Positions 5,601 through 58,100 of a DNA stretch of 64,000 bases are shown one piece after another. The translations under genes and the position numbers were made by a program. Below the pieces are notes generated by a model. It was given only the letters and a program-made list of their open reading frames with translations. It did no database searches and had not been told where the DNA came from. The DNA lies in assembly GCA_038245295.1 (NCBI GenBank), contig JBBRSP010000003.1:1-64000 (forward strand), written 5' to 3'. This DNA is from Candidatus Binatia bacterium (lineage in GTDB: Bacteria > Desulfobacterota > Binatia > HRBIN30). How positions within the stretch are numbered: position 1 is the first letter of the stretch; every line of letters begins with the position of its first letter.

Positions 5601-6956
5601 TGTCTGCGTGAAACTGGCTGTTGCGGTGCGTGTCGCACTCGGCGTGTTGGTGCGGCTTGCGGTGCTGGTGCTGGTTGCCGTGTTGGCCGGTGTGTTGGTC
5701 ATGCTGCTGGTAACGGTTGGTGTTGGTGTGATGGGTGTGCGGGTCTGCGTTGGTGTCAGCAACGGCGCCGGCGTATTCGTCCGCGCCGGCGAGACACTCG
5801 ACGTTGGGGTGTTGGTCGCCATGGTCGTTGCTGTGCGTGTGCTGGTTGGGGTGCGTGTCGACGTGGCGGTGGCTGTCGGTTGAGTACTTGTCGATGTCGA
5901 GCTCGCTGTGCTCGTCGCCGAGCTGGTGGGGCTCCGCGTATTGGTTGGGGCCGGGGTCGCCGTGCGCGTGTTGGATGGTGTGCGGGTGGATGTCACAGTC
6001 GGCGTCAGGGTTGGTGTGCTGGTGATACTGGCGGTCGCGGTGATCGTTGGTGTTGTTGTTGGTTGCGTGTTGGTGCGTGTCGGCGTTGTGGTCGGCGTTG
6101 GAGTAACCGTGGGCGTCAACGTCGGCGTCGAGGTGGGGCGTGTGTTGGTTACCGTCGCCGTCGAGGTTTGAGTGGCGGAGCTGGTCTGGGTCGCCCTCAT
6201 GGTAGCAGTCCCGGTCTGGCTCGGCGTTCGAGTCAGCGACGGCGTTGCGCTGGCGGTGTGTGTCGATGTTTGGGTGATTGTCGGCGTCGGAGTCGGCAAC
6301 GAATAGGTGTACGTGACGCACAGCTGTGTCGACAGCTGTGTTGCCACCTGACTAAGAACGTTCCCGGCCCCGGAGGTGTCGAAGGTCGCGACGGCGCCAA
6401 CCGGTAGGTTCACCGAGCCGCTGCCAAGAAAGTCGCTGATCGGCAGATACGGGTTGCGCGTCGAGGAGCTCGTATTGTTGAGGCCCAGATGCGTGGCGCC
6501 GGAATTGCCGGCGAAGTCCATGGCGCCGTCGAATGCTGTAAAGTTGTCGACAACAATGTTGACGCATTGGGCGACGACAGAAGGCGCCGTGGGTGTGGTG
6601 ACGGTGATGATGCCACGGCCGGTGCCGGTGACGGTCGCGGCATCGGCGTCGAGGCTCTCGAGCTTGATGTCCTGAATCATCGTCGCCGAGACACTCAGGC
6701 TGACGTCGGTGAGCAGCCCGAGACTCGAATCAAATTTGGCCAGGCTGATGCTGCCGGTCCAATCGGTAGTCGCCAAGGCGATGTTGCCGCAAACGGTCTG
6801 TGTCGCCGCGAGAGCAGGTGATCCCGAGAGGACAAAAGCGACTAGGATGGCGGCGATCGATAGCGGGTGGGGCGAAATGACGGGCAGAAGGGGAGTGCTC
6901 CCCCGGTCGTCGCCCATGAGGCGCCCGAACAAGCCTTCGAGGGCTCGTGTCCTCAT
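2664..6956 (-). CDS. Large secreted/surface protein: two choice-of-anchor-E-like domains, Thr/Pro-rich linkers, four SdrD-B/CnaB-like repeats, Cys-rich C-terminal domain
   Basis: Hydrophobic signal-like segment ending ALAA; two homologous TDW/TNW..FD..LG.L..VSLS domains; four G(D)xVWxDxxxxG repeats with DSDA/DSDV motifs. Start taken at ATG 6956 (GGAG RBS and a sigma54-like promoter upstream). Confidence 0.85.
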   Translation of the reverse strand: MRTRALEGLFGRLMGDDRGSTPLLPVISPHPLSIAAILVAFVLSGSPALAATQTVCGNIALATTDWTGSISLAKFDSSLGLLTDVSLSVSATMIQDIKLESLDADAATVTGTGRGIITVTTPTAPSVVAQCVNIVVDNFTAFDGAMDFAGNSGATHLGLNNTSSSTRNPYLPISDFLGSGSVNLPVGAVATFDTSGAGNVLSQVATQLSTQLCVTYTYSLPTPTPTITQTSTHTASATPSLTRTPSQTGTATMRATQTSSATQTSTATVTNTRPTSTPTLTPTVTPTPTTTPTRTNTQPTTTPTITATASITSTPTLTPTVTSTRTPSNTRTATPAPTNTRSPTSSATSTASSTSTSTQPTATATSTRTPTSTRTATTMATNTPTSSVSPARTNTPAPLLTPTQTRTPITPTPTVTSSMTNTPANTATSTSTASRTNTPSATRTATASFTQTPTQTPPLSISFCRPVSMQATNWSTTVTLPLYDSANGALVRVSLSVDAAITQDLRLESLDPASSTVTGVGTGTITLSPPTLPVVTSLPQNTLTAALTGFDGSIDFAGTSGASYVGLGATNHAERNPYLPLADFMGPGNITLPVTATASFNASGSGNVITQANTQAAASICVSYFYALPTATPTRTSTWTPRPTATRTPSPIVVSTSTPTRTISPTATLTPAPGSLGDLVWHDLNANGIQDAGEPGIRAVTVNLYDGSNRFLRATTTDDSGLYRFANLLPGQYVVGFVLPGGYMVSEPKRGDDNGKDSDADPITGRSGLVTVATGQANLTVDLGVYQLAALGDLVWLDLDANGTQDAGEQGASGVQVNLYNSSNAVVASTTTSTSGFYLFPNLTPGLYSVEFVPLTGYALSPSDRGGNDNKDSDANSITHRTVTTTLISGETDLSWDAGIYQPASLGDRVWVDANGNGLQDDGEAGLGAVGVNLYDGQGQRTATTTTNSNGRYSFSNLVPGVYSVEFVLPSGYLFSDASEGGNDDLDSDADRASGRTVATILTSGENDLSWDAGVRLAPTPTMTTTPSFTQTPIQTSTPTRTRTSTRTPALGSIGDRVWLDQDADGLQSVGETGVDGVVVNLYNSNNQRVATTTTVGGVYQFTGLAAGNYAVEFAVPAGWVVTVPNHGDDGAVDSDVNPTSLRTAVVALGPGQVNNTIDAGLHVALPPTATMTTTPTSTRTPTVTPTATPQDTPTFTPTASPTTLPTALAGCGLRQDSLVPGYCGSLDNDCLQEFCVNPPPPLNAIGLPGQQLECKNDDPTCDRSLGDTTCSIQVSVCFDVPETRIACVSPGQVAEIKVRRPAPASVNNLVDRDNRDAIFTALLAMGGVADGKCKNPGLTHGLTCGVSADCNTLPGSNDGLCKVRRVVFDPPLSGANTCTQPFIMKVPLLQSTTGVRFNKKSIHMNAMPPKTGGVKARKDGDILDLVCLP

Positions 6957-6983
6957 CGTGTTCTCCGCATCCCGGTCACGCAA

Positions 6984-7000
6984 AGCAAGGCCCGTGCCGT
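6984..7000 (-). promoter_or_regulatory. Sigma-54 (-24/-12) promoter candidate
   Basis: Minus strand ACGGCACGGGCCTTGCT matches GGCAC-N5-TTGC with GG-N10-GC spacing, about 30 nt upstream of the ATG at 6956. Confidence 0.65.
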
Positions 7001-7292
7001 GGCTCGCTAACTGACCGAGAGGGGGAACTAACCCATTCCGGTGGGCTGGGATGGGCTTCGACTGGCCGATATCAACCAATAGAGCCAGGTCGGCTTGAAA
7101 TGAACCGCCCCGAGAGGTGGGAACTCAGGCCCTGCATCTGCACCACCGCAACGAATCGAGTAACGCCGCACTCAATTGCGACCTTCGCGTTTGACGGCCG
7201 CGCCGGTTCGCCGGGCGGCTCCCGAACCGCCCTACCGCCATCGCCGCTTCTGGTTTGGAAGGCAGGCGATGGCGGCGGCGGGGGCGGAGGGG

Positions 7293-9575
7293 TTAGGCGG
7301 CCAGGGCTACTTCGTTTCCTTCGAGGGCGATGGCCAGCACCTCGTCGACCGAGGTGACGGGGTGGAAGCGGATCTGGTTGCGCACTTGTTCCGGCACTTC
7401 GTCGAGATCGCCACGGTTGCGTTCCGGGATGATCACGTCGGTGAGCCCCGCGGCGTGGGCCGCCAGGACCTTCTGCTTCAGTCCACCGATCGGCAGGACG
7501 CGGCCTTGCAGTGTCACCTCGCCGGTCATGCCCACCGTGTGTTTCACCGGTCGGTTGGTCAGCAGCGACGCCAGGGCGGTCACCATGGTCACGCCGGCGC
7601 TGGGTCCGTCCTTCGGGATCGCGCCGGCCGGGACGTGCATGTGGAACTGGCGGTTGGCGAACGACTCGAAGTCGATCCCCAGTCGCCGCGCGTGGCTGCG
7701 CACGTAACTCAACGCGATACGCGCCGACTCCTTCATCACGTCGCCGAGTTGGCCGGTGAGTAGCAGTCCGTCCTGGCCGGGCATCGATGTGGCCTCGACG
7801 AACAGCACGTCACCTCCGGCGCCGGTCACAGCCAGGCCGGTCGCCACTCCAGGCACCGCGGTTCGGACCGCCGATTCCTGGAAGAACTTCGGACGACCAA
7901 GCGAGGTGCGCACGAGATCCGGGTCGAGCGCCACCGGTGAGGTTGCCTTACCAGAGGCGACCTTGGTGGCGATCTTGCGCAAGGCGGTGCCAATCTCGCG
8001 CTCGAGCTGCCGCACGCCGGCTTCCTTTGTGTAGTCGGTGACAACCAAACGCAGAGTGGCATCGTCGACGACAACTTCGTCCGGTCGCAGGCCATTGCGC
8101 TCGATCTGCCGCGGCCACAGGTAGCCGCGTGCAATCGCCACCTTCTCTTCGGTGGTGTACCCGTCGAACTGAATCAGCTCCATCCGATCGAGCAGGGCGC
8201 GCGGGATGGTGTCGGCCACGTTGGCGGTGGCGATGAACAACACCTGCGACAGGTCCATCTCGACATCAAGGTAGTGATCGCGGAACGAGTGATTCTGCGC
8301 CGGATCGAGAACCTCGAGGAGCGCTGCGGACGGATCTCCACGCCAGTCGGCGCCGAGCTTGTCGACCTCGTCGAGCATGATGACCGGATTCATGGTCCCG
8401 GCATCACGCAGGGCGCGCACCAGGCGCCCCGGCATGGCGCCGATGTAGGTCCGGCGATGGCCGCGGATCTCGGCTTCGTCACGCACGCCGCCGAGCGACA
8501 TACGCACGAATTGGCGACCCGTGGCGCGGGCGATCGATTCGCCGATCGAGGTCTTGCCGGTGCCGGGAGGACCAACCAGGGCCAGGATGACGCCAGACCG
8601 ACGGTCGTCGGGGACGTTGCGTTCGCTGCGTAGCTTTCTCACCGCCAGATACTCGGTGATGCGATTCTTGACGTCGTCGAGTCCGGCATGATCGGCATCG
8701 AGAACCGAGCGCGCGTGCACCGGATCGAGGCGCTCTTCCGAGCTCTTGCTCCACGGCACGGCCAGCAGCCAGTCGAGATAGGTGCGAATGATCGACGATT
8801 CGGGGCTCTGCTCGCCCATCTTTTCGAAACGCGCCAGCTCGCGCTCTGCCTGCGCCTGCACCGCCTCGGGCATGCCGGCGGCGGCAATCTTGGTGCGGTA
8901 CTCTTCGCCTACCGAGCCGGCGTCGTCGCCCAACTCCTTACGAATCGACTCCATCTGGCGCCGCAAGTAGTACTGGCGCTGCTGATTTTGGGTGTCGGAC
9001 TCGACGTCCTCGCGGATACGCTTGCGAACTTGTAGTTCGGCAAGACGATCACGCTGGAAGGCGAGGGCGAGCGTGAGACGTTCGACGACGTCGAGCGCCT
9101 GTAGGAGCTGTTTTTTTTGTTCGAAACTGATCTCGGGCGCGTAGCCGGCAGTGTCGGCGAGGGCGCCGACATCGGTAATGGAACGAACGAAGGCGCTGAT
9201 CCGGCCGTTGTCACCGCGCAAGTCGAGAATCTCCTGCACGACGGCGCGGTAGTCACGCTCAAGGTCGGCGGTGCGACTGGCCGGCGGGATCTGGTCGGGT
9301 TTCTCTTCGACGTCGACGCGCACACCCCCAGCCGTGGTTGGGCTGGCGGCGCCGGCGCCGCCACGATGATGAGCGGTCAACACGACAGCGTTGCCGCGGC
9401 CAGGGACACTCCCCTGTTCGATGACGTCGGCGATGACGCCGACGGCGGCGTACTCGGTGCCGTGACGGGGGACAAGAAAGACACGTCGATCGTCGCCGAT
9501 ATCTACCGGCAGGGTGATCGACATGCCCGGGAACACGACGGTGTCATCCAGCGGTATGAGCCTGAGTGTGGTCAT
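7293..9575 (-). CDS. lon: ATP-dependent protease La (Lon)
   Basis: Walker A GPPGTGKT, RGHRRTYIGAMPG, catalytic PKDGPSAG and LPIGGLKQK. Start is 9575 or 9611. Confidence 0.95.
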   Translation of the reverse strand: MTTLRLIPLDDTVVFPGMSITLPVDIGDDRRVFLVPRHGTEYAAVGVIADVIEQGSVPGRGNAVVLTAHHRGGAGAASPTTAGGVRVDVEEKPDQIPPASRTADLERDYRAVVQEILDLRGDNGRISAFVRSITDVGALADTAGYAPEISFEQKKQLLQALDVVERLTLALAFQRDRLAELQVRKRIREDVESDTQNQQRQYYLRRQMESIRKELGDDAGSVGEEYRTKIAAAGMPEAVQAQAERELARFEKMGEQSPESSIIRTYLDWLLAVPWSKSSEERLDPVHARSVLDADHAGLDDVKNRITEYLAVRKLRSERNVPDDRRSGVILALVGPPGTGKTSIGESIARATGRQFVRMSLGGVRDEAEIRGHRRTYIGAMPGRLVRALRDAGTMNPVIMLDEVDKLGADWRGDPSAALLEVLDPAQNHSFRDHYLDVEMDLSQVLFIATANVADTIPRALLDRMELIQFDGYTTEEKVAIARGYLWPRQIERNGLRPDEVVVDDATLRLVVTDYTKEAGVRQLEREIGTALRKIATKVASGKATSPVALDPDLVRTSLGRPKFFQESAVRTAVPGVATGLAVTGAGGDVLFVEATSMPGQDGLLLTGQLGDVMKESARIALSYVRSHARRLGIDFESFANRQFHMHVPAGAIPKDGPSAGVTMVTALASLLTNRPVKHTVGMTGEVTLQGRVLPIGGLKQKVLAAHAAGLTDVIIPERNRGDLDEVPEQVRNQIRFHPVTSVDEVLAIALEGNEVALAA

Positions 9576-47360: not shown

Positions 47361-48611
47361 CTACGACGGCCGGGGCACGCCAACCGGCACAACCGCGGAA
47401 TGGCGCCGCAGTAGCGAGTTGACGATTGCCGTCATCTGATCACAGAGCTCCTGGGCATGCTGCAGCTTCTGCGCCGACTCCTGGCGCATTCCCGTGTCGG
47501 TGAGGCCAATCAGCTCGAGATATCCGGCCGCCGCGGCGAGCGGGTTCTTCAAGTCATGGGCGACCGTCCGGGCATACGCATCGAGCTCGCGGATGAGCCG
47601 TACACGTTCGGTGACGTCGTGTAGGACGATGAGCTGACCGACCGACCGTTGCCTGTCATCACGAATGAGCGAACAGCGCACGTCGACGACCATCGTGTCG
47701 TGGGCCACTTCGCTCGTACTGCCGTCGGCGGCTTCAATGGTGCCTTGCACTCGTTCCCAAAAGGGCAGGAGTGCGGCGACGGGGTCGCCCGGCTGGCCGT
47801 TGCGGTGGATGAGATTTCGCGCCGCGGGATTGAGGTCGAGAAGACGATACTCGTCATCGATCACGATGACGCCGTCGCGATGTTGTTGGAACAACAAGCT
47901 GCGCACGGTCGGCATCACGTCGAGCAGGCGATCATGCAGGGTGACCCACGCTACCGTGACCATCGCGACGAGCAGGGCCACCGGCGTGAGGTCGATGCCG
48001 CGCGTGAGCTGCGTCAGGACCATCGCGTTGACGATGAGCGGCGTCGCCAGGCCGAGGCTCAGCACCACGATGCGGCGAATGTAGAACGTCTGCGATCCGG
48101 ATGTGTGGGCGAAGAGGGCGCCGAGAGCGCCGACGATCAGGCCGTAGGTCAGCGGCAGTTGCAGCCAGTAGAACCCTGGACCAAGCACCATGACGGGGAC
48201 GCGGGCGAAGCCGAGATCAACCCAATCGGAGGGGAGCCAGATGAGTTGGTGATAGGGGTTCGTGACAATCAGCAACAGGTTGACGGTCAACGCCGCCGTT
48301 ACGGGAAAACGGGCGATGCGCCACCACGCCGTGCGCCGCGCGTAGCGACAGGCGAAACGAAAGAAGCAGTAGGTTGCGCCAAGGATGGCCGGGGATGCGG
48401 CGCGCCGCAGCAGATCCTGCAGTGGTGGGTCGTTGATCAGGTAGGACAGCGCGTCTTCCAGGATCCACACGGCACAGCCGACAAGGCAGGCACTCATCCA
48501 TACCGCCGCGGGTTGCCGTCGCTGCCGCCAGAAGTAGATCGCCAGCGCCAGCGCCACAGCGGTGGTGGCGAGTAGGCCGTAAGGCAAGATCCAGGTCGGG
48601 TCGCGCGTCAC
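47361..48611 (-). CDS. HisKA_7TM + PAS + DHp protein lacking the ATPase (CA) domain
   Basis: 7TM region (TNPYHQLIW, DLTP), PAS (DGVIVID..LNPAA), H-box VAHDLKNPL; ends shortly after DHp helix 2. Confidence 0.88.
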   Translation of the reverse strand: MTRDPTWILPYGLLATTAVALALAIYFWRQRRQPAAVWMSACLVGCAVWILEDALSYLINDPPLQDLLRRAASPAILGATYCFFRFACRYARRTAWWRIARFPVTAALTVNLLLIVTNPYHQLIWLPSDWVDLGFARVPVMVLGPGFYWLQLPLTYGLIVGALGALFAHTSGSQTFYIRRIVVLSLGLATPLIVNAMVLTQLTRGIDLTPVALLVAMVTVAWVTLHDRLLDVMPTVRSLLFQQHRDGVIVIDDEYRLLDLNPAARNLIHRNGQPGDPVAALLPFWERVQGTIEAADGSTSEVAHDTMVVDVRCSLIRDDRQRSVGQLIVLHDVTERVRLIRELDAYARTVAHDLKNPLAAAAGYLELIGLTDTGMRQESAQKLQHAQELCDQMTAIVNSLLRRHSAVVPVGVPRPS

Positions 48612-48720
48612 GGTTGTGAGTTATTCTGCCGTCGAGCCGGAAGTGCAAGCGTTGTCGACAACAAGACCCGGGGGCACGGAAGATTGCGTAGGACATCCTA
48701 CAACCGGTAAGCAGGGCGGC

Positions 48721-50436
48721 GTGTCGGCTTCGACCATTTACGAGACGGTGCCGTGGATTCTAGGCGTCGCAACCGTCGGCGCGCTGTTGCTCGGCGGGTA
48801 TGCATGGACCCAGCGGCAACAGCCTGGCGCCCGTTGGCTGGCGTTGATGCTGTTGATCGCCGCCCTGTGGGCGGCATGTGACCTCGTCAGCTTCGTTGCC
48901 GAGATGCCGACACTCGAAGGCATGCTCAAGCGTTTCACGTGGTGGCTGATTCTCGGCGGCGGGTACACATTTTTGCGTTTCGCCGGCGTTCACGCGCGTC
49001 ACGAAGCCTGGTGGGAGCGCGTGCGTCTGCCGGTACACGCGCTGATTGCCGTCAACCTGTTGCTGATGCTCACCAATGGGCAGCACAATCTCATGTGGGC
49101 CAGCGAAAAGATCGTCGACCTCGGCTTTGCGCGGCTGCCATGGCTCGAGCCGGGGCCCGCCTTCTTCTGGATCTTTCGCCCGCTGGCCGCGGGCCAGCCC
49201 CTGGCTGGAGTCGTCGTCCTGCTGATCAGCGCCTTCGGCTCCCCGGGAATCTACATCCGGCAGATCGTTACGCTAGCGATCGGTGCGGCGATTCCGGTGG
49301 TGGTCAATGTGCTGTTCGTGTCGACCTCGGCGCCCGAGCTCGACACGACTCCGGTAACCGTGGTGATCGTCGTAACTGCCTTTGCTCTATCCACCTTCCG
49401 GTTCGGCCTTCTCGACGTGATGCCGGTGGCGCGTGGAATGCTTCTCGACCAGCTCGAGGACGGGGTGATCGTCCTCGACGCGCAATGCCGTGTCGTGGAT
49501 CTCAACCCGGCGGCGCAACGTCTGCTCGGCGGCGCGGGCTTCACGCCAGGTTCACCGGTCGAGCAGCTCGTACCGTTCTGGAACGAAGTACGTGAGGGGC
49601 TCGAGAACGGTGACCAGCCAACCGTCGAAACGGCCCTCGGCGGCGAGAGCGGGAGGTTCATCGAGTTGCGTGCGTCGCGCCTCGGCGGTGAGGATGGCGG
49701 CGCAACGGGACGCGTCCTCGTGTTGCACGATGTCAGTGCGCGTGCCCGCTTGATTCGCGAGCTCGACACCTATGCGCAAACCGTGGCGCGCGATCTAAAA
49801 GCGCCGCTGCAGTCGGTGATCCAGTCGCTCGACGAATTCGCCGGGAGCGAGGTGTGCGGCGCCGACGCCACCAAATATTTGCAGGGTGCCGACCGCGTTT
49901 GCCGCCAGATGACCGGTACGATCGACGCGTTGTTGTTGTTCGCGCAGTTGCGGTCGACGGACGAAGTGCAGCTCGAGGTCGTCGACATGGCCAAGGTCGT
50001 CGAGGCGGCGCTGCATCGCTTGTCCAGTGCCATCGCTGGCGCCGGCGCTGAAATCGTCGTGCCCGAGAGGTGGCCGGTGGTGCCCAGCCGACCGCTGTGG
50101 GTCGAGGAGATATGGACGAACTACCTTTCAAACGCGATCAAATACGGCGGTCGCCCACCGCACATCGAGATCGGCGTATCGACCGAGCAAGCCGAGGTGG
50201 TGCGCTACTGGGTGCGTGATGACGGAGCCGGTCTGAATGAGCAGCAACGCGCTCAGCTGTTCCGCGAGTTCACCCGCCTTGACCCGGGCCGCAGCGAAGG
50301 CCACGGGCTCGGCCTGTCGATCACGCGGCGCATCGTCGAGAAACTCGGCGGCGAGGTCGGCTGCGAAAGTTACCCGGGGCGCGGCAGTACGTTCTGGTTC
50401 ACTCTACCCATGGGAGGCTTGGGAGGAATGGGATGA
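48721..50436 (+). CDS. HisKA_7TM + PAS + DHp + HATPase kinase with H-box His replaced by Arg
   Basis: H-box reads VARDLKAPL; N (NYLSNAIKY), G1 (DDGAG), F and G2 (GHGLGL) boxes are intact. Start GTG 48721 is inferred. Confidence 0.9.
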   Translation: MSASTIYETVPWILGVATVGALLLGGYAWTQRQQPGARWLALMLLIAALWAACDLVSFVAEMPTLEGMLKRFTWWLILGGGYTFLRFAGVHARHEAWWERVRLPVHALIAVNLLLMLTNGQHNLMWASEKIVDLGFARLPWLEPGPAFFWIFRPLAAGQPLAGVVVLLISAFGSPGIYIRQIVTLAIGAAIPVVVNVLFVSTSAPELDTTPVTVVIVVTAFALSTFRFGLLDVMPVARGMLLDQLEDGVIVLDAQCRVVDLNPAAQRLLGGAGFTPGSPVEQLVPFWNEVREGLENGDQPTVETALGGESGRFIELRASRLGGEDGGATGRVLVLHDVSARARLIRELDTYAQTVARDLKAPLQSVIQSLDEFAGSEVCGADATKYLQGADRVCRQMTGTIDALLLFAQLRSTDEVQLEVVDMAKVVEAALHRLSSAIAGAGAEIVVPERWPVVPSRPLWVEEIWTNYLSNAIKYGGRPPHIEIGVSTEQAEVVRYWVRDDGAGLNEQQRAQLFREFTRLDPGRSEGHGLGLSITRRIVEKLGGEVGCESYPGRGSTFWFTLPMGGLGGMG

Positions 50437-56126: not shown

Positions 56127-56282
56127 GGCCTGCGCATATCACGTGGGAAGTATTTGGCCATTCAGTCGCCTGCCTTAACTCTGCCCCCTGCCTAAGCCTT
56201 GCCTAAGCCTGCGCCGCAGGCGCAACGAAGAATCGCGTTGACAACTGGGATGTTAGGACGTTTCATGCCGCACAGAGGTTTC

Positions 56283-58100
56283 ATGTCGATTTTGAGAGTA
56301 TTGCGGATCGCGACGATCATGATCTTGTTCGTCGCGGCACCGGTCCGTGCATCCTCCTACCGTCCCCACATCGTCAATGGCGTGGTCAGTGGCCAATTCC
56401 CCAGTGCCGGAGCATTGCTGATGGGCACGAGTGCCAATACGGCCCAGCTCGAATGTTCAGGGACGTTGATCGGGTGCGACACCTTCGTCACGGCGGCGCA
56501 CTGTGTTTGCAATGGTCTTGGTAGCCAATGCCAGGGCATTAATTCTCCCGCTTCCTATTTCGTCTTCTTCCAGAATGCAGGGTTCTTCAGCGTCACCAGT
56601 GTCACGGTGCGTTCGGACTTCAATTTCCCGGTCGGCGACGTGGCCGTGCTGAAGCTCGGCGCGCCGGTAACCGGGATCACGCCCATGCCGCTCAATACCG
56701 CCGCGACACCCGCGTTCGGCATGGCGGGATACATTGCCGGGTTTGGACGCACGGGCGGCAGCAACAATGACTACGGGGTCAAACGGATGGGTAGTGTCAC
56801 GACGGCGGAGTGTTCGACGGAATCGAATGTCACCTCCGTTTGCTGGGCGTTCAATGCGCCGCTTGGCGCGCCGGGGGCCCATTCCAATACCTGCAATGGC
56901 GATTCCGGCGGACCGCTCTTCGTCGACAACGGCAGCGGCCTGGTGCTCGCCGGTACCACCTCCGGGGGCTACCGTGACGACTGTCTCCTCGGTGATGAAA
57001 GCTACGACGCCAACATGTTTCACTATCACTCATGGGTTGAAAGCATCGGCGGCGCGGATGTCGGCACGACGGTCTGCAGCGACCTTCCGGTCGTCGGGTC
57101 GAGTGGCGCACGAGTGAGCTCGTTTGCCGGAACCTTGTCGACGAATCAAACAGCGACGCATATCTTCACGCTGCCATCGGGCATGAGTGACCTGCGCGTT
57201 ACGCTGAATGCCGAAGCCGACGTCGACCTCTACCTCAAGGCCGGAAGTGCCCCGACGACGAGCGACTACGATTGCAAGCAAGACGGCCCAACCGGTTTCG
57301 GCGCCTGCGCGATCAGCAGCCCGGCTGCCACGACATGGTACGCGATGGTCGTGCAGTACAGCGGCAGCGGCGTCTACCAGGTGACGGCGACGGCGTTTGG
57401 TTCGGATTGCTCTGATCCGATGAATGCCGGTCAGCCATGCGACGACGCCAATGCGTGCACGACCGGTGACGTCTGCAACGGCGGCGTCTGCAGCGGCAGC
57501 AACGTCGCCGACGGTTTGCCGTGTGACGACCGCAATGCCTGTTCGAACCCCGACGTTTGTCTCGCGGGCGCCTGTAGCGGTGGCACGGCGCCACGTGTTG
57601 GCTGTCATGCTCCGTTTGCCGCGCCGGCCGGCGTGGTGCGTTTGCGCCAGCCACTCGTGGGCGTGCCGCATCTGAGCTGGCGCTGGGTCAAGGGCGAAGC
57701 CACCAGCATTAGCGAGTTTGGCGCCCCGACGGTGTCGACGGCGTATGACCTATGTCTCTATTCCACGTCTGGTGCCTCGAGCTCGATCCTGTTGCAACAC
57801 CACGTCGCGCCGGGCGGCTTGTGCGGATCACGGCCGTGCTGGAAGACGACGCGTCATGGATTTCGCTACACGGATCGTGCGGCTGCCAATGGCGCTGTGA
57901 CCAACATCGAGCTGCACGATGGCAGTGACGGCAAAGCCATGGTCACCGGGCTCGGCAAAGGGGCGTTGAACCTACCACCGCTGCCGCTCGCAGGAACTCC
58001 GGCAATCACGATGCAGCTGACCAACGGCATCGCCTGCTGGGAAGCGAGCTACGGAGCCGGGATCAAGAATACGACCACTGAGTACCGCGCGCATCCCTGA
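56283..58100 (+). CDS. Secreted trypsin-like serine protease with PPC domain, Cys-rich repeats and a C-terminal domain
   Basis: Signal peptide, IVNG, TAAHC, DVAVL, GDSGGP; DVDLYLK (PPC); CDD.NAC..DVC twice. Confidence 0.9.
   Translation: MSILRVLRIATIMILFVAAPVRASSYRPHIVNGVVSGQFPSAGALLMGTSANTAQLECSGTLIGCDTFVTAAHCVCNGLGSQCQGINSPASYFVFFQNAGFFSVTSVTVRSDFNFPVGDVAVLKLGAPVTGITPMPLNTAATPAFGMAGYIAGFGRTGGSNNDYGVKRMGSVTTAECSTESNVTSVCWAFNAPLGAPGAHSNTCNGDSGGPLFVDNGSGLVLAGTTSGGYRDDCLLGDESYDANMFHYHSWVESIGGADVGTTVCSDLPVVGSSGARVSSFAGTLSTNQTATHIFTLPSGMSDLRVTLNAEADVDLYLKAGSAPTTSDYDCKQDGPTGFGACAISSPAATTWYAMVVQYSGSGVYQVTATAFGSDCSDPMNAGQPCDDANACTTGDVCNGGVCSGSNVADGLPCDDRNACSNPDVCLAGACSGGTAPRVGCHAPFAAPAGVVRLRQPLVGVPHLSWRWVKGEATSISEFGAPTVSTAYDLCLYSTSGASSSILLQHHVAPGGLCGSRPCWKTTRHGFRYTDRAAANGAVTNIELHDGSDGKAMVTGLGKGALNLPPLPLAGTPAITMQLTNGIACWEASYGAGIKNTTTEYRAHP

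What the first reader, a model, noticed from the sequence alone, without database searches (positions are those of the whole stretch)
47361..50436. Divergent pair of complementary half-dead 7TM histidine kinases: candidate split, obligate-heterodimer kinase
Seen in sequence: two head-to-head paralogs (about 110 bp apart) share HisKA_7TM-PAS-DHp architecture and motifs (VDLGFAR, LLDVMP, DGVIV, LNPAA, VLHDV..R.RLIRELD.YA.TVA.DLK.PL). The minus-strand gene keeps the H-box His (AHDLKNP, codon 47556-47558) but ends after the DHp, 21 bp from the HPr stop, so there is no room for a frameshifted ATPase domain. The plus-strand gene has intact N, G1, F and G2 boxes but its H-box is ARDLKAP (CGC at 49789-49791). 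Established: HKs dimerise through the DHp and many phosphorylate in trans. Inference: neither homodimer can autophosphorylate, but a heterodimer could, giving a two-sensor AND gate. No response regulator lies in the window.
Basis: partly seen in the sequence, partly recalled or inferred. Interest (0 to 1): 0.85.

Follow-up and report, generated by a model that had tools for sequence, protein, structure and literature searches.

The report
Split sensor kinase from duplicated genes
Two back-to-back copies of a membrane sensor kinase have each lost a different half of the catalytic machinery and are kept together in related sediment and soil bacteria, so they most likely work only as a mixed pair.

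Summary
Observation confirmed. Gene A (47361-48611, minus) is HisKA_7TM-PAS-DHp with the phospho-His and no ATPase (CA) domain. Gene B (48721-50436, plus) has an intact CA but Arg at the His site.

This is neither an error nor recent decay. The divergent pair is intact on DNA in 6 distinct loci. All 12 full-length A orthologs keep HDLKNP and lack CA; B has Arg in 10, Gln in 2 and His in 1 of 13. A and B are sister clades from one duplication of an intact kinase, with dN/dS about 0.2 (B's CA 0.10).

A conserves the regulator-docking face of helix 1 and B has lost it; B tends to conserve the matching face of helix 2. That fits one shared active site in an A:B heterodimer in which B phosphorylates A in trans (about 0.62).

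Cis versus trans is unresolved, the complex prediction is weak, the response regulator is unknown, and the AND-gate claim has no support. It works like streptococcal FasB/FasC, but the losses are hard-wired. This scan noted the same logic earlier in a pair on other DNA (e1-2835434).

The parts
47361..48611 (-). Gene A: HisKA_7TM-PAS-DHp, 416 aa, phospho-acceptor half, no CA domain
   Evidence: 12 of 12 full-length orthologs of 405-436 aa lack PF02518
47910..48575 (-). HisKA_7TM (PF16927) sensor of A
   Evidence: E 4.7e-32
47598..47885 (-). PAS domain of A (residues 243-338)
   Evidence: PAS_4 E 1.9e-4 (below curated cut-off); aligns with B's PAS
47406..47573 (-). HisKA/DHp of A; H, H+1 D, H+4 N and H+11 G invariant in 12 orthologs
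47556..47558 (-). His352 codon, predicted phosphorylation site
48612..48720 (.). 109-bp divergent intergenic region with two conserved blocks, one near each start
   Evidence: no sigma-70 consensus hit, so promoter function is inferred
48721..50436 (+). Gene B: HisKA_7TM-PAS-DHp(His to Arg)-CA, 571 aa, catalytic half
   Evidence: AlphaFold model mean pLDDT 89.7
48760..49425 (+). HisKA_7TM (PF16927) sensor of B
   Evidence: E 6e-35
49444..49749 (+). PAS domain of B
   Evidence: PAS_4 E 3.4e-8
49789..49791 (+). Arg codon CGC in place of the H-box His
   Evidence: CGC in 6 of 6 loci examined
50095..50412 (+). HATPase_c/CA domain of B with N, G1, F and G2 boxes
   Evidence: dN/dS 0.10-0.18 in four pairwise comparisons

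Best explanation
A and B are the two halves of one sensor kinase. An orphan 7TM-PAS-HisKA kinase duplicated head to head; copy A lost the CA domain and copy B lost the phospho-His (shown by comparison). In the membrane they form an A:B heterodimer through the DHp four-helix bundle (inferred). B's CA binds ATP and phosphorylates A's His352 in trans, and a response regulator encoded elsewhere docks on A helix 1 plus B helix 2 and takes the phosphate (inferred). The dimer has one live and one dead site. Neither homodimer can autophosphorylate (follows from HisKA chemistry). A keeps the HDxxN phosphatase motif, so A without B may reset the regulator, and the A:B ratio could tune output (speculative). 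Ligand and regulator are unknown.
For: Intact divergent pair seen on DNA in G000, G026, G029, G037 (=L116), L117 (=L118) and L119, in unrelated neighbourhoods. A: 12 of 12 HDLKNP and no CA. B: 10 Arg, 2 Gln, 1 His of 13. Outside the clade, 203 of 205 motif-matching relatives have His (303 examined, 98 no regex match). A and B are sister clades (SH-aLRT 100; A 99, B 98; quick tree). A and B distances co-vary over 10 pairs (rho 0.94), which shows co-inheritance. dN/dS 0.22 (A) and 0.23 (B) for G026 v G029; A DHp 0.10, B CA 0.10. At helix-1 specificity positions mapped from EnvZ (PMC2991266), mean identity is 0.71 in A and 0.30 in B (P 0.0005); H+4 is 1.00 v 0.04. At helix-2 specificity positions the trend reverses, 0.20 v 0.53 (P 0.068). 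Complex prediction: weak pass, 0.32 v best control 0.00; the mark was reached by 116 of 157 solved and 2 of 215 mismatched pairs, but at 0.60 or under by only 18 of those 157 and by both mismatches; runs agree in at least 81% of contacts, partner pLDDT at least 67; it may reflect likeness to solved DHp dimers. Precedent: FasB/FasC (PMC12675982).
Against: The model needs a trans-handed bundle, which is not established. Hairpin length equals that of a WalK structure (its cis mode is recalled), and the B model aligns about as well to cis HK853 as to other kinases. B keeps the H+1 Asp in 13 of 13 and mostly Arg at the His site, which a wholly dead helix would not need. P0006 has His and an intact CA, beside an A-type gene judged by equal contig length. 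P0128 and L120 show A without most of its 7TM, and L120's B is truncated. The helix-2 signal is not significant at the a-priori positions and could reflect packing against B's own CA. The sequences are related, so the P values are overstated. No feature favouring hetero- over homodimers was shown.
Confidence: 0.62

Rival explanations
1. Split kinase without a stable DHp heterodimer: B homodimers phosphorylate A homodimers in a transient dimer-to-dimer encounter, as CheA4 does to CheA3.
For: Same reciprocal loss and linkage. Would work even if the bundle is cis-handed (hairpin length). CheA3/CheA4 precedent (PMC3591291, passages).
Against: B's helix-2 face is more conserved than A's, as expected if B helix 2 lies next to A helix 1. 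Both keep near-identical N-terminal DHp helices. In HisKA kinases the CA acts within the dimer (PMC6798134).
Confidence: 0.12
2. Not a composite kinase: A is a sensor-phosphatase or His phosphotransfer adaptor for a regulator of another pathway, and B is a DivL- or RetS-like pseudokinase that modulates A or a third kinase.
For: A keeps the phosphatase Asn at H+4 (12 of 12; PMC3510030 abstract). CA-less HisKA proteins have been proposed as phosphatases (PMC5847659). G026, G029 and G037 carry a further intact 7TM kinase. B's Arg and H+1 Asp are conserved.
Against: B's N, G1 and G2 boxes are almost invariant and its CA is its most constrained domain. No intact close 7TM paralog was found in G000 (genome 96.6% complete). 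The two halves complement exactly.
Confidence: 0.16
3. The heterodimer is real but is a product of constructive neutral evolution: one damaging change per copy locked both in, and it does the ancestral job with no new logic. This rivals the AND-gate purpose, not the chemistry.
For: Single duplication. Most invariant 7TM residues are shared by A and B. Experimental demonstration of this route in a yeast homodimer (PMC10888846, abstract). Possible reversion in P0006; possible loss of A's sensor in P0128 and L120.
Against: Both 7TM domains stay under equal purifying selection (dN/dS 0.20-0.30) and differ at clade-invariant sites such as 70 R/K, 81 T/G, 152 H/F and 181 R/Q. Arg is kept rather than drifting.
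Confidence: 0.45
4. Sequencing error or independent pseudogenisation of two genes.
For: A single base separates CGC from CAC; two related loci look broken.
Against: CGC in 6 of 6 loci and in contigs of three samples; no stops or frameshifts in 6 intact pairs; dN/dS well below 1; A ends at a similar place in all orthologs.
Confidence: 0.02

Closest known systems
FasB/FasC of Streptococcus pyogenes (PMC12675982; abstract, passages and first part of Discussion read)
   Same: Two paralogous membrane kinases that interact as a heteromer and not as homomers in two-hybrid tests; one gives the His (FasC H246), the other the kinase domain.
   Different: FasC still carries a (dispensable) kinase domain and FasB still has His residues in its DHp; six TM helices, an operon with regulator FasA. 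Here CA is physically deleted, the His is replaced, the sensor is HisKA_7TM-PAS, the genes diverge and no regulator is linked.
CheA3/CheA4 split kinase of Rhodobacter sphaeroides (PMC3591291, passages)
   Same: Neither protein autophosphorylates alone; the His-bearing half also carries phosphatase activity.
   Different: Class II CheA with an HPt-type P1 domain, cytoplasmic, transient contact. Here class I HisKA, and both halves keep a full sensor and DHp.
RetS-GacS heterodimer of Pseudomonas aeruginosa (PMC8498467, passages)
   Same: Shows that two different HisKA proteins can form a DHp-DHp heterodimer like the homodimer.
   Different: It is inhibitory and GacS is self-sufficient. Here the heteromer is predicted to be the only active form.
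Rv0600c/Rv0601c/TcrA of Mycobacterium tuberculosis (PMC3544749, one passage; the domain split is recalled)
   Same: Two kinase-like genes serving one regulator.
   Different: Recalled as one kinase cut in two pieces, not two duplicated full receptors with reciprocal losses.
Evolved ChrS pseudokinase with HrrS in Corynebacterium glutamicum (PMC9491836, abstract)
   Same: A CA-defective paralog that heterodimerises with an intact paralog.
   Different: Laboratory-evolved frameshift; the partner keeps its own His.
Intact orphan HisKA_7TM-PAS-HisKA-HATPase kinases of Anaerolineae, Bacteroidota and Binatia (e.g. P0188, P0014)
   Same: Same architecture and CA signature; the ancestral state.
   Different: They carry both His and CA in one chain.

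Membership tests
HisKA (class I) sensor histidine kinase, gene A | HisKA DHp with phospho-His | tested here: met
   PF00512 37.4 bits over cut-off 26.9; HDLKNP
HisKA (class I) sensor histidine kinase, gene A | HATPase_c domain in the same chain | tested here: not met
   No PF02518 hit; stop 65 codons after the His; same in orthologs
HisKA (class I) sensor histidine kinase, gene B | HATPase_c with N, G1, F, G2 boxes | tested here: met
   PF02518 80.6 bits; boxes conserved in 11 orthologs
HisKA (class I) sensor histidine kinase, gene B | Phospho-His in the H-box | tested here: not met
   Arg; 12 of 13 orthologs Arg or Gln
HisKA_7TM receptors (PF16927) | N-terminal PF16927 domain over cut-off | tested here: met
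   111 and 119 bits v cut-off 28.6; seven helices in the model
FasB/FasC-type heteromeric kinase | One partner supplies the His, the other the kinase domain | tested here: met
   By sequence only; activity not assayed
FasB/FasC-type heteromeric kinase | Heteromer forms, homomers do not | tested here: inconclusive
   Weak complex prediction, 0.32 v 0.00; homodimers not modelled
FasB/FasC-type heteromeric kinase | Operon with a ComE-like regulator; six-TM sensor | tested here: not met
   Divergent genes, 7TM-PAS sensor, no conserved neighbouring receiver gene
CheA3/CheA4 split kinase | CheA domains (HPt P1, P5) in a chemotaxis cluster | tested here: not met
   Neither protein has such Pfam domains
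Trans-autophosphorylating HisKA kinases | DHp hairpin handedness that places the His beside the partner's CA | tested here: inconclusive
   E. coli ArcB (cis per PMC5956149) and BarA (trans per PMC8498467) have equal hairpin length, so length does not decide; fold search does not separate the classes
Split kinase (general) | His phosphorylation only when both proteins are mixed | not testable with these tools
   Needs an in vitro kinase assay

The most novel reading that the evidence does not exclude
A hard-wired heterodimeric receptor kinase in which two different 7TM sensors with a GPCR-like predicted fold feed one shared active site, so that output needs both ligands, while free A acts as phosphatase and sharpens the switch. 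This would be a natural bacterial coincidence detector built from the classic His-minus plus ATPase-minus complementation pair.
Probability: 0.2. Interest if true: 0.85.

Novelty: new variant of a known kind. Interest (0 to 1): 0.66.

Why it matters
Sensor kinases are taught as self-sufficient homodimers. Heteromeric ones are rare, and in the best example (FasB/FasC) both partners still carry both parts. Here both losses are fixed in the sequence and kept across orthologs as distant as 44-52% identity, with intact relatives and a possible revertant for comparison. That makes three things directly testable with small soluble fragments: whether a one-active-site asymmetric dimer is enough for signalling, how a homodimer turns into an obligate heteromer after duplication (neutral lock-in or new logic), and whether conservation on the DHp faces can predict cis or trans phosphorylation. 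It also suggests that database entries for CA-less or His-less 'incomplete' kinases should be checked for a complementary neighbour. It offers a scaffold for two-input synthetic receptors. The clade is small and uncultured, which limits its reach.

Tried and rejected
Expression: no RNA holder listed.
Link to HPr or the PTS: rejected. In 7 of 7 family relatives checked, HPr is followed directly by metK, and other copies of the pair sit in unrelated neighbourhoods.
Linked regulator: receiver-domain hits lay near the pair in L031 (partial, converging), L117 (3-5 kb away) and L032 (weak, about 5 kb away), and not in the window, L030, L116, L119 or L120. Intact relatives are orphans too (0 of 17 loci). 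G000 has 60 receiver ORFs and none could be assigned.
Hairpin length and fold search as cis/trans predictors: inconclusive.
First fold from 11 sequences was low-confidence (pLDDT 57) and was not used.
Genome-collection scan with the B alignment returned only intact Chloroflexota-type relatives because the patterns were generic.
Longer fused forms of A: none at E 1e-40 among 8000 candidates, weak evidence.
A partner for the outside His-to-Arg protein P0312 was not found: the 7 motif-matching loci among the 10 best in 401 Anaerolineae-class genomes all had His.
Sigma-70 promoter scan: 0 hits.
Atlas search of the 7TM gave only HisKA_7TM clusters.
Literature searches for this system or for a HisKA_7TM ligand found nothing; the library lacks most subscription papers, and the key paper on loop handedness was not held.
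Tree: 5 of 52 rows dropped for lack of a motif match, one outgroup row (P0129) was cut at a wrong motif, and only the quick tree finished.
Full report
Observation. Gene A (47361-48611, minus, 416 aa) has HisKA_7TM, a PAS fold and a HisKA domain with His352 (codon 47556-47558), and stops 65 codons later, 21 bp from the HPr stop. Gene B (likely start 48721, end 50436, plus, 571 aa) has HisKA_7TM, PAS and a HATPase_c domain, but Arg (CGC, 49789-49791) at the His position. They are 41% identical over 398 residues. Contigs from three samples of one study cover the codon with no differing letter; one may be the source of this DNA, and none are raw reads. No receiver domain was found in the window.

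Conservation. The intact divergent pair, about 100-150 bp apart, is seen on DNA in six distinct loci: the window, G026, G029, G037 (=L116), L117 (=L118) and L119. Five more pairs are inferred only from equal contig lengths. Source names for orthologs read Candidatus Binatia or Deltaproteobacteria. The pair was found in 4 of 401 genomes sampled from the class, all in one order: 0 of 25 other genomes of the window's family and 3 of 5 of another family. Neighbours differ at every locus. In 7 of 7 family relatives checked, HPr is followed directly by metK, so here the pair sits in an insertion and the HPr adjacency is incidental.

Reciprocal loss. All 12 full-length A orthologs keep HDLKNP and end without a CA domain. 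Of 13 B orthologs, 10 have Arg, 2 Gln and 1 His; the codon is CGC in 6 of 6 loci. Outside the clade, 203 of 205 relatives that matched the motif have His (303 examined, 98 unmatched), as do 72 of 72 motif matches in 153 loci. A quick maximum-likelihood tree of 47 rows (5 of 52 dropped) makes A and B sister clades (SH-aLRT 100; 99 and 98 each) against intact kinases, and nests the His-bearing P0006 beside Arg-bearing P0002, so it is a reversion or an error. A and B distances co-vary over 10 pairs, 4 of them inferred (rho 0.94, 0 of 5000 shuffles); this shows co-inheritance, not contact. dN/dS is below 0.45 in all 30 whole-gene comparisons; for the least saturated one (G026 v G029) it is 0.22 for A and 0.23 for B, 0.10 for A's DHp and B's CA, and 0.26-0.27 for both 7TM domains.

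Footprint on the DHp. EnvZ specificity residues (PMC2991266, passages) were mapped through E. coli EnvZ. On helix 1 (H+7, 8, 11, 12, 14, 15), mean pairwise identity is 0.71 in A and 0.30 in B (P 0.0005 against 326 sensor-region positions). The phosphatase position H+4 (PMC3510030, abstract) is Asn in 12 of 12 A and random in B (0.04). On helix 2 (H+32, 35, 36) the trend reverses, 0.20 in A and 0.53 in B (P 0.068); a stripe chosen after seeing the data gives P 0.006. One conserved groove made of A helix 1 and B helix 2, and one relaxed groove, is what a trans-handed heterodimer predicts. Related sequences inflate these P values, and the helix-2 pattern may partly reflect packing on B's own CA.

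Mechanism. Shown: architecture, reciprocal loss, linkage, purifying selection, asymmetric conservation. Established: in HisKA dimers the His lies beside its own CA (cis) or the partner's (trans), depending on hairpin handedness (PMC6798134, passage), and His-minus and ATP-binding-minus mutants of a trans kinase complement each other (GacS, PMC8498467, passages). Inferred: A and B form a DHp heterodimer, B's CA phosphorylates A His352, and a distant regulator collects the phosphate. I put this at 0.62, and some form of B-to-A phosphorylation at about 0.75. A complex prediction gave only a weak pass: 0.32 against a best control of 0.00, contacts agreeing in at least 81%, partner pLDDT at least 67. 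The mark was reached by 116 of 157 solved and 2 of 215 mismatched pairs, but at 0.60 or under by 18 of 157 and both mismatches, and it may come from likeness to solved DHp dimers.

Against this reading. Handedness is open. The hairpin has the same length as a WalK structure, but ArcB (cis, PMC5956149, passage) and BarA (trans) have equal lengths, and the B model (pLDDT 89.7) matches HK853, CpxA, RetS and others without separating the classes. A cis-handed heterodimer would be dead. B keeps the H+1 Asp in 13 of 13 and usually Arg, which is unexplained. P0006 would be self-sufficient if its His is real. P0128 and L120 have lost most of A's 7TM, and L120's B breaks at a low-complexity repeat; these may be decay or misassembly. 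G026, G029 and G037 also encode an intact 7TM kinase that could be a partner, though none as close was found in G000.

The AND gate. Both sensors are conserved equally, and a few positions are fixed differently between clades, but most invariant residues are shared. No ligand for HisKA_7TM turned up. In FasB/FasC only one partner's membrane domain is needed. Duplication plus one damaging change per copy can lock in a heteromer with no new function (PMC10888846, abstract). So coincidence detection is possible but unsupported.

Comparison. It works like FasB/FasC of group A Streptococcus (PMC12675982; abstract, passages, first part of Discussion) and, more loosely, CheA3/CheA4 (PMC3591291, passages), whose authors count 711 CA-less HisKA proteins with the phosphatase motif as possible split kinases. 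It is a member of neither family: it fails their architecture and operon features. Neither gene alone passes the test for a complete HisKA kinase. Searches found no description of this pair; supplements were not read and most subscription papers are not held. An earlier, unchecked note of this scan (e1-2835434) reports the same reciprocal loss in an overlapping gene pair in another genome; a sequence look-up with A found no look-alike, so it is probably a separate origin. I did not test that note and do not count it as support.

Verdict. A real, conserved, reciprocally split sensor kinase: a new variant of a known but rare design, easy to test in vitro. Interest 0.66.

Noticed in passing
window 48721-49425 (model residues 1-235): The predicted HisKA_7TM domain aligns with GPCR-type seven-helix bundles: designed GPCR-like folds Z 16-17, a class T GPCR Z 15.5, mGlu5 7TM Z 15.1, rmsd 3-4 A over about 205-220 residues at 4-9% identity. 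Helical bundles score high by chance, and the domain was not folded alone.
   Followed up: partly
P0071 and P0312 (outside the A/B clade): Two more distant 7TM kinases also have Arg at the His site; P0071 has a degenerate N-box too, P0312 a near-intact CA. Possible independent splits; partners not found.
   Followed up: partly
window 47340 to about 52400: The kinase pair, a SpoU-family methylase and a PRPP-synthetase-like gene lie between HPr and metK, which are adjacent in 7 of 7 family relatives checked.
   Followed up: partly
window 48612-48720: Two conserved blocks in the intergenic region of six orthologous loci, one near each start codon, that do not fit the sigma-70 consensus scan.
   Followed up: partly
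L120:921-2624 and P0128: A-type genes lacking most of the 7TM domain, both resuming at the same motif just before PAS; in L120 short tandem repeats lie at both breaks. Decay or misassembly.
   Followed up: partly
L038 (G401:C141:2059-3768 and 6539-8236): Two 7TM kinase paralogs in tandem in an Anaerolineae genome; the first has His and CA, the second's H-box was not read.
   Followed up: no
G000:C16:16853-17494: A third, distant HisKA_7TM domain in this genome, in a 776-aa frame.
   Followed up: no
window 56199-58100 (-): ORF that reads like a secreted trypsin-type protease with cysteine-rich repeats (from the translation; no family search run).
   Followed up: no
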